Positions 3,762 through 63,420 of a DNA stretch of 64,000 nt are shown here, in pieces. The position numbers and the translations under genes were made by a program. Within the stretch, counting starts at the first letter, position 1. Each line of letters opens with the position of its first letter. Source of the DNA: Eledone cirrhosa (taxonomy: Eukaryota); the NCBI GenBank assembly GCA_964016885.1, contig CAXHJY010001531.1, positions 1 to 64,000 of the forward strand, in the 5' to 3' direction. The notes beneath the pieces were generated by a model. The model was not told the origin of the DNA, made no database searches, and saw only the letters and a program-made list of their open reading frames with translations.

Positions 3762-3811
3762 TAAAATAAGTTAAATAAAAGTCAAATGATTAAAATTTAG
3801 CTTCGTTTATT

Positions 3812-3866
3812 ACTGCTATATATATTTCAGTGACAGCCATCTTTGGCTGTGACCTCTTCAGGCAGT
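3812..3866 (-). ncRNA. Type I hammerhead ribozyme (inverted copy, E1)
   Basis: Reverse complement of 4098-4152. Confidence 0.85.
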
Positions 3867-4097
3867 TTCAATTAGTATGGTATAGACAAAGTACATATGT
3901 TGTTTAGGTGTATGATATTGTCAATACTCTGATATGCCCAGTTCCTTGTTGGGTTGTTAATTCACTGGGGAACTGGAGTCATATGACTCCAGTTCCCCAG
4001 TGAATTAACAACCCAACAAGGAACTGGGCATATCAGAGTATTGACAATATCATACACCTAAACAACATATGTACTTGTCTATACCATACTAATTGAA

Positions 4098-4152
4098 ACT
4101 GCCTGAAGAGGTCACAGCCAAAGATGGCTGTCACTGAAATATATATAGCAGT
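4098..4152 (+). ncRNA. Minimal type I hammerhead ribozyme (E1)
   Basis: actgc-CTGAAGA-ggtcacagcc/ggctgtcact-GAAA-tatata-TA-gcagt: helix I, conserved core, helix II and a palindromic helix III typical of PLE hammerheads. Confidence 0.88.
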
Positions 4153-4300
4153 AATAAACGAAGCTAAATTTTAATCATTTGACTTTTATTTAACTTTATT
4201 TTACACTACTCCGGAGTAACCAAACCAACCTGCGCACTTCGTCGAGTGCTCCAGCCTGCATACTGAGGTGTTGGTATACAACCAACATAAACTCAAAATC

Positions 4301-5840
4301 TATTATATATATATATATATATTATATATATTATATATATATATATTATATATATTATATATATATATATTATATATACTATATTATATATATATATATT
4401 ATATATATTATATATATATATTATATATATATATATAATATATATATATATACTATATTATATATATATATATATATATATCATTATATATACCGTATTA
4501 TATATATATATATATTATATATATTATATATATATATATATATAATATATATATATATATATAATATATATATATTATATATATTATATAATATATATAT
4601 ATAATATATATATATATATATATAATATATATATATATATATAATATATATATATTATATATATTATATATATATATAATATATATATATTATATATATT
4701 ATATATATATATAATATATATATATTATATATATTATATATATATATATATTATATATATATATATATATATATAATATATATATATTATATATATTATA
4801 TATATATATATATATTATATATATAATATATATAATATATATATATTTAATATATATATATATATATTTAATATATATATATTTAATATATATATATTTA
4901 ATATATATATATATATATATTTAATATATATATATATATATTTAATATATATATATATATATTAAATATATATATATATATATATTAAATATATATATAT
5001 ATTATATATAATATATATATATATTTAATATATATATATATATATATTTAATATATATATATATATATTTAATATATATATATATATATATATATTAATA
5101 TATATATATATATATTAATATATATATATATATTTAATATATATATATATATATTTAATATATATATATTTAATATATATATATATATATTTAATATATA
5201 TATATATTTAATATATATATATATATATTTAATATATATATATATTATATATATATATTTAATATATATATATATATATATATATTTAATATATATATAT
5301 ATATATATATATTTAATATATATATATATATATATATATTTAATATATATATATATATATATATATTTAATATATATATTTAATATATATATATTTAATA
5401 TATATATATATATATTTAATATATATATATATATATTTAATATATATATATATATTTAATATATATATTTAATATATATATTTAATATATATATTTAATA
5501 TATATATTTAATATATATATATTTAATATATATATATTTAATATATATATTTAATATATATATATATATATTTAATATATATATATATATTTAATATATA
5601 TATATATATTTAATATATATATATTTAATATATATATATTTAATATATATATATTTAATATATATATTTTAATATATATATATATTTAATATATATATAT
5701 TAATATATATATATTTAATATATATATATATATTTAATATATTTATATTTAACATATATATATTTAATATATATATATATATTTAATATATATATATATA
5801 TATTTAATATATATATATATATATTTAATATATATATATA
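4301..5840. repeat. (TA)n array, with a TTTAA variant unit in the distal part
   Basis: Direct reading. Confidence 0.97.
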
Positions 5841-6980
5841 TCATCATCATCATCATCATCGTTTTACGTCCGTTCTTCCACGCTCACATGGGTTAGACGG
5901 GTTGTCCTGTTGTGGGCAGTGTCTGATCGGCTGACCATGCCTTGCTCATACAGGAACTGATTTGGCTTGATTTCTACAGCTGGATGCCCATTCCGAACAC
6001 CAACCTCATTTACAGTGAGTGCTGGGTGCTTTTTCATGGCGCCTACACATCCACCTTGTGGTGGGGGATGTGGGGCATATTGTCTATATGCTTCATCTTG
6101 TACTCATGGGAGGTCGGGTACTCTGTATTACTGCGCGACGCCAGAAGTCACGGTCGTGTGTCATTGTCTTTGAGAGTGTAATTGGGTAAGGTCGACTTTT
6201 ATCACCTCATCCCAGGTCATCTTGGGTCTCCCCACTCCGCGGTTTCCACATCAACTTCTAGTGCTCTGCAGCTTTTTATGCAGCTGTCATCCTTCATACG
6301 CATCACATATCCATACCAGTGCAACCGTCTCTCCTGCACACAGCATTTGATTCCTCTTATGCTCAGTCTCTCTCTCAATTTATTTATGCTTTGTCGTTCA
6401 CGTATATTACTGTTACACATCCATCGGAGCATGCAGGCTTCATTTCTCTCTAATCTACGTAAGTCTTCCACCTTCAGCGCCCAGGTCTCACTACCATGCA
6501 ACATCGCTGTTCGGATACACGCATCATACAGTCTGCCTTTCATTCTGAGGGAGAAGCCTTTTGCAGCTAGCAGTGGTAGTAGTTCCCTAAACTTCTTCCA
6601 TCCCATTCTTACCCTAGTTATTGTACTTTCTGAACACCCACCTCCGCTGCTAAATCGGGTACCTAGGTAGCAGAAGCTGTCTACTGTTTCTACAGGGCCC
6701 TCCCAGAGATTGGTGGTACTTGTTTCCTGTGGCTGTTTGCTGCTTGCTGTCTCAGCACAGCTGCTGCATGTGAATCCTACATTCTTAATTAAGCTTCTTG
6801 AGATCCCGCTACATCTCTTGTGTACCCATTGTTTGCATTTGGGGCAGAGAATGGAGTTCCTACCTACGCCTTTCCTACATACTGAGCAAGGCCATTTCCC
6901 TGAGGGGATCTGCGTTCTGTTTTCTCGTCTACTCACAAGGACCTTAGTCTTTGTCATGTTGACTTTGAGACCCTTTCTTA
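5841..6980 (-). mobile_element. 5'-truncated RTE-clade LINE (family 1) with (GAT)n tail
   Basis: ORF 6217-7005 is homologous to the C-terminal half of ORF 50782-52899 (PHD-like finger, YLG, HGSETW, RLHWYG); (CAT)n at 5841-5860. Confidence 0.92.
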
Positions 6981-7111
6981 CTGCACCAATCTTTTGGTAT
7001 GGCACCTTCTAGTATTACCTAGTTATATATATAAATATACATTATGAAGAGAGAAGAAACATTTAGATATAATTAGTAATAAAATGTATCATACCTAAAC
7101 TGCTCCTAGAT

Positions 7112-61561: not shown

Positions 61562-62466
61562 TACGATCTATACGTGGATATTTTACGTCTCGATGTGGGA
61601 GCTAAGTATATGTTTTGTTTATACCTTTACTTATTTGTATAGGTAAGTATATATTATCTGTATGTTTTGTGAAGGCACGTATATCTTCTCGTACGTATAT
61701 TTGATTGTTATGGCGTATAATTTTTTTATATATTCTGGTACATATGGTTCGGCTATGTGTATACGGGAGTTTTGCGTCTGTGTGAGTATGCAGGTTCGTA
61801 CGTATGTAGGGCGTGTGTATATGTGTACTTCATGTTTTGGTTGACTTACGTCTCCGAACATTCGTGTATTTACATGTAGGTATGTGTGTGCGCTTGTTAT
61901 ATACGTATTTATTTATTTATATACGTTTATATAATTATTTATTTATTTGTATACACGCTTACACACACACACATATTTATATGTGCGTGGTTTTATTTAC
62001 CTATGGTATGTTTTTGCGTATGCTTGTGTATGTACGTTTCTGTTTGCGTGTATGTATTTATTTATTTCTATTACTTCTGTATTGTATTTATTTACTTTGT
62101 TCTTAACTCCGTAGCGGAGATTCATTCGGTCTCCTAGTTAGAATTAAGTCTACCACTTCTGCTATACCATTTAGTGGTTTTGTCTTTGCGTGCTATTGTT
62201 CTCCACGCTCCACATATGACGTATTATCTTCGTTTTTTTCGTTCATCGCCAGAGAACGTCTCTATGAACCACCTAAGAGAACATTAGTCTACGACCTCTT
62301 TTATACCATAAACGTGGTTCTGTCTTTGCGCGTAATTGTTTTTCACCGCTCCTATTAATGACGTATTATATTCGTTTTTTCCCGTTCTTAGCCAGCGAAC
62401 GTTTCCACGAACCGGGTGCAACGTTTTTTGAAATATCCAGTTCTGCGTTTACAGATTGACTTTGTT

Positions 62467-62517
62467 AGTTTCAGAAGATCCCGTTAAGGGTGAAAGCAGC
62501 GATTCTTTGCTTAAACT
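62467..62517 (+). ncRNA. Type I hammerhead with CAGAAGA core (E13)
   Basis: agttt-CAGAAGA-tccc/gggt-GAAA-gca..tgc-TT-aaact. Confidence 0.7.
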
Positions 62518-62679
62518 TTAATCTGTTATTTTAATAAATATATATATATATATATATATATATATTATATATATATAAAGTATGTATGTATGTAAAGAGA
62601 GATGTAAAATCGTGACAGCTGCGCCAAGAGGTTTCAGCTTGTGTCTCAGAACCGCAGACTCTATTTATATATATATCCT

Positions 62680-62835
62680 TATGTGGTTGATGACTGATAA
62701 AAAGGAGTACTCAATACGGAAGTAGAGTTTTAATATTCATTTTATTAAGGCTAAATAGGGCCATGAACCAGTGATAAACAGGTGAAACTGCAGAGTAACA
62801 AGATTCACTATTTATCCTTAATAAAAATGAATGTA
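62680..62835. mobile_element. Small diverged PLE-derived inverted repeat E14
   Basis: Arms ~62735-62762 / 62804-62832; tail stem-loop at 62709-62728 on the minus strand; GAAAC..GTA half-ribozyme. Confidence 0.55.
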
Positions 62836-63181
62836 TATAGAAACAACATTTTTTTAAGAGAGGCAGATGTTTCTGTGTGTGGTTGAGGAGTGCCAATGGA
62901 AGAATTGCTGTTAGGCTCTTGCCAACAGGGCCGGAGTTATTTTGCTAAGTGCTACATCTCACTACTTGCTTGAACAGGTCAAAGTGATGCTTCTTGTCTG
63001 CAGAACCAGAGTCGGAATGACCCAAAGAAAAACTTATTTTACTTCACGCCAAGCTGGCTGGTCTCTCCAGGCAACTGATGTCAACCGAGATTAAAAAAAG
63101 ACCAGCCAGATGTCATTCGAGGTGGTGGGGAGGCAGTATGTGCAAAGAGATTGTGCTATATATATATATATATATATATAT

Positions 63182-63254
63182 AGAGAGAGAGAGAGAGAGA
63201 GAGAGAGAGAGAGAGAGAGAGAGAGAGAGAGAGAGAGAGAGAGAGAGAGAGAGA
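63182..63254. repeat. (GA)n microsatellite
   Basis: Direct reading. Confidence 0.97.
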
Positions 63255-63420
63255 AGAAAAGAGTCAGGACCTCGGCAGCTGAGCTCCGGCCGTTTCGACA
63301 GCTAAATCCGAACTAAGCCACCAATACTGACTCTTTTTCTTGTTACCCACTCTACTACCCTAGTATTGAGTACTCTGGTGCATTATGGTCCACATAGAAT
63401 CTTACCACCCCTCTTTGTTA
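63255..63420. mobile_element. Small PLE-derived inverted repeat E15
   Basis: AGAAAAGAGTCAG / CTGACTCTTTTTCT arms; tail stem-loop at 63349-63371. Confidence 0.5.

What the first reader, a model, noticed from the sequence alone, without database searches (positions are those of the whole stretch)
3762..63420. Zoo of ~15 hammerhead-bearing PLE insertions in microsatellite arrays, mostly head-to-head hairpins
Seen: E1-E15 come from about 14 distinct sequence families. Nearly all sit in or beside (TA)n, and nearly all have both 3' ends pointing outward into the array with a tail on one arm only. Established: PLE pseudo-LTRs carry minimal type I hammerheads, and inverted 5'-truncated copies occur. 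Unusual: roughly one insertion per 4 kb, this family diversity, and the dominance of tiny non-coding hairpins. In E6 and E13 the tail-less arm is the long, ORF-bearing one, so it cannot be a fold-back copy of the short arm. Inference: two cDNAs are primed from the two strands of the self-complementary TA target at different RNA positions and joined centrally.
Basis: partly seen in the sequence, partly recalled or inferred. Interest (0 to 1): 0.75.

Follow-up and report, generated by a model that had tools for sequence, protein, structure and literature searches.

The report
Two-ended Penelope insertions in TA arrays
These are ordinary, genome-wide leftovers of Penelope-type jumping genes that land in TA repeats as two back-to-back pieces, almost always one with and one without an extra tail, a pattern likely made by copying one RNA from two fixed start points onto both ends of a DNA cut, which makes a poorly understood insertion step testable.

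Summary
About 15 Penelope-like (PLE) 3' ends from about 14 families are in the window; 6 families link to RT+GIY-YIG ORFs elsewhere (5 Hydra-type, 1 Neptune-type) and 2 are non-coding tandem units. Only 9 of 15 are two-armed with one tail. Density is ordinary: 12 hammerhead motifs per 64 kb against 65 per 380 kb of evenly spaced genome. Head-to-head arms, a one-sided tail and (TA)n targeting are published. The mechanism data are the added value. In the E6 family 34 of 34 resolved two-armed copies have one tailed and one tail-less end; 75 of 81 incidental pairs from seven families do too. In 8 of 30 simple copies the second arm is tail only, which a fold-back cannot make. In three families arm 5' ends pile up at an initiator-like site (two with a TATA-like box about 30 nt upstream), not at the ribozyme cut. 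Best reading: coupled twin priming at two RNA sites, tiny hairpins being run-offs at the RNA 5' end. Window-specific junctions are not confirmed by reads. The scan reached a similar twin-priming reading before on other DNA of this and other genomes.

The parts
3762..4300 (.). Hairpin insertion of a Hydra-type PLE 3' end: tail-less left arm (-), right arm (+) with 97-nt tail 4204-4300; hammerheads 3866-3812 (-) and 4098-4152 (+)
   Evidence: continues into RT/GIY-YIG ORF in L103, L105
7032..7810 (.). Two-armed insertion of a 593-bp non-coding tandem (retrozyme-like) unit; U3-A8 hammerhead cores at 7196 (-) and 7491 (+); tail on right arm only
7920..8278 (.). Two-armed insertion: about 210-nt tail-less left arm cut inside hammerhead stem II, short right arm with tail; family carries a U3-A8 hammerhead in L274 and L089; no ORF link found
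8456..8708 (.). Hairpin of the 16656 family: tailed left arm (-); 44-nt right arm ending in an AT-rich stretch, not at site 1; centre a few nt 3' of the hammerhead cut, so no hammerhead
11137..11432 (-). Single tailed arm with degenerate hammerhead (two core changes) at 11360; hairpin form in L250
11700..11888 (.). Tiny hairpin of a Hydra-type family with 16,398 exact 31-mer hits; centre at the hammerhead core; 68-nt tail on right arm
   Evidence: 758-aa ORF in tandem unit L379
13115..15272 (.). E6: Hydra-type PLE; long tail-less arm 13115-15040 (-) with GIY-YIG C-terminus, 3' UTR and hammerhead 13204-13158; short arm 15039-15272 (+) with 163-nt tail
16656..17728 (-). Single tail-less arm of a Neptune-type PLE (C-terminal GIY-YIG with CCHH and CX4CXXC linker); hammerhead 16864-16822; 5' end abuts an RTE 3' fragment
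23692..24075 (.). Hairpin with hammerheads on both arms (23809-23741, 23900-23968); tail on right arm; left end abuts a SINE fragment rather than TA; no ORF link found
40708..40886 (.). Decayed hairpin with the 3' half of a hammerhead-like motif; no homologue in fetched DNA; tail status unknown
40905..41030 (-). Tail-less 3' end of a Hydra-linked family with hammerhead 41005-40930, plus array flank; source or copy of a secondary inverted duplication
   Evidence: L388
43346..43480 (+). 100% identical inverted copy of 40905-41030, including host array, at the 5' junction of the LINE RT fragment 41482-43345; not a one-tail hairpin
45086..45652 (+). About 1.05 units of a roughly 520-bp non-coding tandem element with canonical hammerhead 45511-45592; direct terminal repeat, single arm
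59951..62537 (.). E13: Hydra-type PLE; short tailed arm 59951-60249 (-), long tail-less arm to 62537 (+) with 5'-truncated RT-GIY-YIG ORF 60239-61561; hammerheads 60111-60061 and 62467-62517
62680..62780 (+). Decayed hammerhead-like single end; one homologue found; weakest member
63255..63420 (.). Tiny hairpin of a very common family (long-stem-II U3-A8 hammerhead in full copies; core missing here); tail on right arm; beside (GA)n/(TA)n; no ORF link found

Best explanation
These are 5'-truncated insertions of several Penelope-like retroelement families in (TA)n arrays, whose two back-to-back arms are likely made by one enzyme complex priming reverse transcription from both ends of a cut TA target, one end at RNA site 1 and the other at site 2 a tail-length downstream, with the two cDNAs then likely joined by short microhomology. 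Shown: PLE identity for 6 families, two fixed 3' end points per family, the one-tail rule, tail-only arms and junction microhomology. Inferred: both cDNAs usually read the same RNA molecule. Where the RNA 5' end is close (the pLTR transcription start near the hammerhead) both run off there and give the tiny, near-symmetric hairpins; otherwise each stops independently and gives unequal arms. The hammerheads are passengers of the pLTR; their cut site does not set the arm ends in the families with enough data.
For: E6 family, 60 clusters taken in genome order from a tail-blind pattern: 34 of 34 two-armed copies with both ends resolved have one end at site 1 and one at site 2. Incidental pairs in DNA fetched for other families: 75 of 81 one-tailed, 5 with no tail, 1 with two; independent site choice would give about half. 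Of 30 simple E6 pairs, 8 have a second arm made of tail only, 15 have the tail-less arm longer by more than 30 nt, 7 the tailed arm longer, and 8 are symmetric within 30 nt against 1.3 expected (0 of 100,000 permutations). Tail-only arms also occur in 3 of 13 E1-family pairs, one abutting the other arm's start (L012). Junction overlap of at least 1 nt in 18 of 20 filler-free junctions against 45% by chance. 5' ends pile up in 13-nt windows: 34 of 59 arms (11700 family), 61 of 113 (63255 family), 15 of 64 (E13), each at an initiator-like site, with a TATA-like box 31-33 nt upstream of the peak in the first two. A non-genomic G precedes the arm in 15 of 31 cases at these positions against 12 of 69 elsewhere (p=0.003, post hoc). 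In vitro, a PLE protein cuts and extends both strands, starts at two internal sites that bound the tail, and is predicted to be a dimer (PMC11167929). Opposite-strand joints occur in independent raw reads of the E6 family.
Against: The rule is not absolute: 6 of 81 incidental pairs break it and L091 has two tails. 18 of 38 E6 junctions carry filler or nearby mismatches instead of clean microhomology. 19 of 60 E6 clusters look single-armed (4 with a second arm of only about 5-20 nt), 4 have an unresolved end and 3 failed to map. The TATA-like box is absent or weak in E6 and E13; no such peak is seen in the 16656, 23692 or 7032 families. The pile-up sites also resemble splice acceptors. Many tandem copies extend far upstream of the proposed start, so longer or circular RNAs must also serve. 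The in-vitro paper found no difference in start site between strands, so it does not itself explain the coupling. No empty sites or target duplications could be read inside TA arrays. Some incidental pairs may be counted twice where loci overlap.
Confidence: 0.68

Rival explanations
1. Self-priming or fold-back: one cDNA (or an antisense RNA template, as proposed in PMC3846280) turns on itself and copies its own strand, giving the inverted arm; the endonuclease then resolves the intermediate and leaves the tail on one side.
For: 8 of 30 E6 pairs and most tiny hairpins of the 11700 and 63255 families are near-symmetric; some centres sit on natural palindromes (E1). It explains a one-sided tail without needing coupled start sites.
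Against: 8 of 30 E6 pairs share no sequence between arms, and in 15 of 30 the tail-less arm reaches further 5' than the tailed one. Both outer ends fall at two fixed sites that match in-vitro RT starts in kind. It needs extra template jumps in over half of cases.
Confidence: 0.15
2. Twin priming, but on two separate RNA molecules (two ribonucleoproteins, one per DNA end); symmetry arises only because many RNAs share one 5' end or RT stop.
For: Arms overlap in sequence in 22 of 30 E6 pairs, so one RNA would have to be read twice with strand displacement; shared 5' pile-ups alone can give symmetric tiny hairpins.
Against: Independent complexes do not explain the one-tail rule (34 of 34; 75 of 81), nor symmetric pairs at scattered positions (-40, -130, -196, -215, -300, -427).
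Confidence: 0.12
3. The hairpins are assembly or library artefacts, or later rearrangements in unstable TA arrays.
For: The window is on an 86-kb unplaced contig; its own E6 junction was not seen in 4 runs; the 40905/43480 pair is a later duplication.
Against: Same anatomy at well over a hundred independent chromosomal loci, with fixed outer ends and family-specific tails; arms of older copies have diverged; opposite-strand joints in raw short reads from another study.
Confidence: 0.04

Closest known systems
Hydra clade of C-terminal EN+ Penelope-like elements (Craig et al. 2021, PMC8557442; passages and section 11 read)
   Same: RWK-like and DKT motifs, CxCX5C linker, no CCHH, hammerheads in pLTRs, insertion into (TA)n; inverted 5'-truncated copy at the 5' end and tail at one end only (Fig. 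2 legend).
   Different: Tails here are about 58-163 nt, not 30-40; E6 unit is 4.2 kb and the 11700 family unit 6.0 kb (paper: generally under 3 kb); the paper ascribes the tail to endonuclease resolution and gives no counts of tail coupling or tail-only arms in the passages read.
Adineta vaga Penelope insertions with head-to-head inverted pLTRs (Arkhipova et al. 2013, PMC3846280; passages read)
   Same: Head-to-head arms, palindromic junction, optional tail on one pLTR, TATA plus initiator in the pLTR.
   Different: That paper explains the junctions by self-priming on an antisense template; tail-only and longer tail-less arms here argue against that as the main route.
Poseidon PAc in vitro (Frangieh et al. 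2024, PMC11167929; parts 1-2 of 4 read, i.e. the whole results text)
   Same: Both DNA strands cut and extended; two internal RT starts that bound the tail; hammerhead cleavage not needed for insertion.
   Different: It does not address inverted arms or coupling of the two starts, and reports starts without homology to the target, whereas sites 1 and 2 here mostly end in short TA-like letters.
Minimal hammerheads of PLEs (Cervera and de la Pena 2014, PMC4209133; passages read) and animal non-LTR retrozymes (bioRxiv 10.64898/2026.07.22.740005; part 1 of 5 read)
   Same: Type I motifs, U3-A8 variant, pairs 100-700 bp apart on opposite strands; tandem non-coding hammerhead units as non-autonomous PLE derivatives (7032 and 45086 families).
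   Different: No insertion mechanism for the opposite-strand pairs in the passages read.
L1 twin priming (Ostertag and Kazazian 2001; recalled, not read)
   Same: Second target end primes a second cDNA at another RNA position; inversion junction with microhomology.
   Different: In L1 the second start is variable and the arms do not overlap; here both starts are fixed and arms often overlap.

Membership tests
EN+ Penelope-like elements | Single ORF with PLE-type RT followed by GIY-YIG endonuclease upstream of the 3' end | tested here: met
   Full or near-full ORFs for the families at 13115 (832 aa, L087), 59951 (L099), 3762 (L103/L105, broken), 11700 (758 aa, L379), 40905 (L388, decayed), 16656/8456 (L393). 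Motifs read by eye; Pfam gave no hit.
EN+ Penelope-like elements | ORF link for the families at 7920, 11137, 23692, 40708, 62680, 63255 | tested here: inconclusive
   No linked ORF in the few long copies fetched; assignment rests on hammerhead, two fixed ends and TA flanks.
EN+ Penelope-like elements | Tandem or inverted pLTRs with optional tail | tested here: met
EN+ Penelope-like elements | Type I hammerhead motif in the pLTR | tested here: met
   (motif only; several window copies are truncated inside it)
EN+ Penelope-like elements | Hammerhead self-cleavage; RT and endonuclease activity | not testable with these tools
   needs biochemistry
Hydra clade | RWK motif, DKT for DKG, CxCX5C linker, no CCHH, CxxC and CxH around the conserved E and N | tested here: met
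   E6 ORF: RWR, DKT, CNCRANRTC; 11700-family ORF: RWR, DKT, CNCLNKEAC; E13 has RWR and the linker but DKP; E1 family 35-41% identical to E6 with the linker; criteria
Hydra clade | Placement in the RT phylogeny with reference Hydra elements | not tested
   no reference PLE proteins were fetched
Neptune clade (16656/8456 family) | C-terminal GIY-YIG with CCHH and CX2-5CXXC linker | tested here: met
   CIDKKCITC linker and CCHH-type residues read by eye; criteria; no tree built
Non-LTR retrozymes (7032 and 45086 families) | Tandem non-coding units each with a type I hammerhead | tested here: met
   593-bp tandems; about 520-bp tandems
Non-LTR retrozymes (7032 and 45086 families) | Circular or linear monomer RNA expressed | not tested
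   no RNA data were examined for these families

The most novel reading that the evidence does not exclude
Coupled two-ended priming is the default PLE integration mode: an RT dimer on one RNA always gives site 1 to one DNA end and site 2 to the other, so even 'single' copies carry a few-nucleotide second arm. The tens of thousands of tiny hairpins are double run-offs at the capped pLTR transcription start, and they map PLE promoters and cap copying in the genome. This would replace the published antisense self-priming model for inverted pLTRs.
Probability: 0.45. Interest if true: 0.7.

Novelty: new member of a known kind. Interest (0 to 1): 0.45.

Why it matters
How PLEs, the sister group of telomerase, make inverted pLTRs and one-sided tails is called open in PMC8557442 and PMC11167929. 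This genome holds thousands of very young copies per family plus intact ORFs. The counts here favour coupled twin priming over the published self-priming model and give exact start sites and predicted RNA 5' ends for an in-vitro test. The window itself is not special.

Tried and rejected
Rfam scan at E<=10: among the 150 of 256 matches listed there is no hammerhead family, only microsatellite-driven miRNA matches. Generic inverted-repeat finder: swamped by TA arrays; replaced by masked BLAST. Pfam found nothing in the PLE ORFs. Two DNA searches of the genome returned nothing because their words were too common; replaced by patterns. Idea that arms end at the hammerhead cut: only the 8456 hairpin and L139 lie within about 10 nt of it; pile-ups are about 35-45 nt further 5'. 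Idea that pile-ups mark a splice junction: no shared exon sequence in hairpin centres and many arms include the bases before the AG; not excluded. Unusual density: rejected. 22340-22425 hairpin: no hammerhead, no homologue, not counted. 56177/58423 inverted repeat: another repeat family, no convincing hammerhead. Run search: no RNA holder listed. Older window hairpins were not checked against reads. Literature searches for a PLE twin-priming model listed none; subscription papers (for example Arkhipova 2006, Evgen'ev and Arkhipova 2005; recalled) and all supplements were not seen and may hold such a model.
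Full report
Setting. About 17% of it is (TA)n against 5% in evenly spaced genome stretches.

What is there. The relaxed descriptor gives 12 hits against a mean of 0.9 in 15 shuffles. I count 15 PLE-type ends from about 14 families. Nine are two-armed with one tail, four are single-armed and one is a decayed orphan hairpin. One (40905/43480) is a 100% identical inverted duplication that includes host array and sits at the 5' junction of a LINE RT fragment. 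The commonest repeat in the window is not PLE but RTE-type LINE 3' ends with (ATG)n tails (family name recalled).

Identity. Six families continue into RT plus GIY-YIG ORFs elsewhere in the genome. E6 has an uninterrupted 832-aa frame between tandem pLTRs (L087) and the 11700 family a 758-aa frame (L379). Both show RWR, DKT and CxCX5C, the diagnostic features of the Hydra clade, which the describing paper says inserts into (TA)n (PMC8557442). E13, the 3762 family and the 40905 family are related. The 16656/8456 family has a CCHH endonuclease with a CX4CXXC linker, Neptune-type. The 7032 and 45086 families are 593-bp and about 520-bp non-coding tandem units. No ORF link was found for six others. 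Pfam detects none of these ORFs, and no tree was built.

Density. E6 has 2,328 exact 30-mer matches and the 11700 family 16,398 exact 31-mer matches. In 38 evenly spaced 10-kb stretches the window's own families alone give 55 insertions (1 per 6.9 kb). Without that circularity, hammerhead motifs number 65 per 380 kb (4-8 in 3 shuffles) against 12 per 64 kb, and TA-adjacent inverted repeats 77 against 14. The window is typical.

One-tail rule. I took the first 100 of the 2,328 E6 matches in genome order with a pattern that ends before site 1, formed 68 clusters and fetched the first 60. By my tally, 34 are two-armed with both ends resolved, 4 are two-armed with an unresolved end, 19 look single-armed or tandem, and 3 failed to map. 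All 34 have one end at site 1 and the other 163 nt further at site 2. Four of the 19 carry a second arm of only about 5-20 nt (L154, L159, L188, L196). One two-tailed copy appeared in a tail-biased sample (L091). The 3762 family gives 13 of 13 one-tailed pairs, one with a shortened tail, from a query-biased set. Pairs met by chance in DNA fetched for other families give 14 of 16, 36 of 37, 12 of 14 and 1 of 1 and 8 of 8, 1 of 1 and 3 of 4: 75 of 81, with 5 tail-less on both sides and 1 tailed on both.

Against fold-back. Of 30 simple E6 pairs (4 tandem or complex ones left out), 8 have a second arm lying wholly within the tail, so the arms share nothing. In 15 (including those 8) the tail-less arm reaches more than 30 nt further 5', and in 7 the tailed arm does. 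E6 and E13 in the window are of the former kind. The published explanation, self-priming on an antisense template (PMC3846280), predicts palindromic junctions and does not give these without extra jumps. Junction overlap is at least 1 nt in 18 of 20 filler-free junctions against 45% by chance, but 18 of 38 junctions have filler or nearby mismatches.

For one shared RNA. 8 of the 30 pairs are symmetric within 30 nt, at scattered positions, against 1.3 expected (0 of 100,000 permutations). In three families arm 5' ends pile up: 34 of 59, 61 of 113 and 15 of 64 within 13 nt. The peaks lie about 35-45 nt 5' of the hammerhead cut, at initiator-like sites (consensus recalled); two have a TATA-like box 31-33 nt upstream of the peak, in one case the only such box in the 268-nt reference. 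A non-genomic G precedes the arm in 15 of 31 cases there against 12 of 69 elsewhere (p=0.003; positions chosen after looking, and some G come from overlap with the other arm), as cap copying would give. E6 and E13 lack a clear TATA box, and the 16656, 23692 and 7032 families show no such peak. PLE promoters inside pLTRs are published (PMC2377424; PMC3846280).

Mechanism. Shown elsewhere in vitro: a PLE protein cuts and extends both target strands, starts at two internal sites that bound the tail, does not need ribozyme cleavage, and is predicted to be a dimer (PMC11167929). Shown here: fixed ends, coupling, tail-only arms, microhomology and pile-ups. Inferred: a dimer on one RNA gives site 1 to one DNA end and site 2 to the other; (TA)n offers the same primer end on both strands; the cDNAs stop independently or run off the RNA 5' end, anneal and are filled in. 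Confidence 0.68; the run-off part about 0.55.

Reads. Laid on E6, an independent raw Illumina run shows four opposite-strand joints between distant element positions (4-15 reads, 2 starts each), so unequal two-armed copies exist outside this assembly. The window's own junction was not seen in 4 runs, as expected for a young, probably polymorphic copy; no window junction is confirmed.

Known and new. Head-to-head arms, one-sided tails, (TA)n targeting and close opposite-strand hammerhead pairs are in print. Searches for a PLE twin-priming model listed none, but subscription papers and supplements were not seen. Earlier notes of this scan reached a similar two-strand reading on other DNA; my reading was written down before I saw them, and a search for the transcription-start idea found no note. 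Verdict: new members of a known kind in an ordinary window, with useful mechanistic counts; interest 0.45.

Noticed in passing
E6 family ends, e.g. L143, L156, L138, L171: 11 of 45 site-1 ends carry extra copies of the last 7-9 element bases before the TA array (1 of 34 site-2 ends by the same script; two more seen by eye), like slippage or telomerase-style repeat addition at RT initiation.
   Followed up: partly
window 41482-43345: 5'-truncated LINE RT (CR1/L2-like by recall; Pfam RVT_1) with a 10-nt repeat tail; its 5' junction is followed by an inverted copy of DNA about 450 bp beyond its 3' end, suggesting a template switch onto flank during insertion.
   Followed up: partly
window 5844-7023, 10366-10963, 12737-12965, 17725-18116, 44075-44849, 50541-53290 and others: Several RTE-type LINE families with (ATG)n tails and a PHD finger inside the RT region; many fragments sit in TA arrays; 12737-12965 is 99.6% identical to 53057-53285.
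   Followed up: no
window 18374-19700: Mariner-type transposon with terminal inverted repeats and stops in the transposase.
   Followed up: no
window 41004-50531: Kilobase TA arrays interrupted by GTGTC/GACAC units whose polarity flips between 44074 and 44855.
   Followed up: no
3762 family, L003, L007, L008, L010, L011, L012, L015: Arm 5' ends cluster at -205 to -227 from site 1, about 110 nt upstream of the hammerhead, beside a natural palindrome; the query start may bias this.
   Followed up: partly
L392, L393 (16656 family): Neptune-type ORF of about 1,240 aa with a long Asn/Thr-rich insert, recalling the N-rich inserts of rotifer Penelope (PMC3846280).
   Followed up: no
window 13204, 62472, 43390, 11360: Hammerhead cores with fixed changes (U4C, U4A, G8A, double change); the first two also stand in the family references L087 and L099; cleavage untested.
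   Followed up: no
window 24095-24170 and 22340-22425: A small TIR element around a (TG)n tract, and an orphan decayed hairpin without hammerhead.
   Followed up: partly
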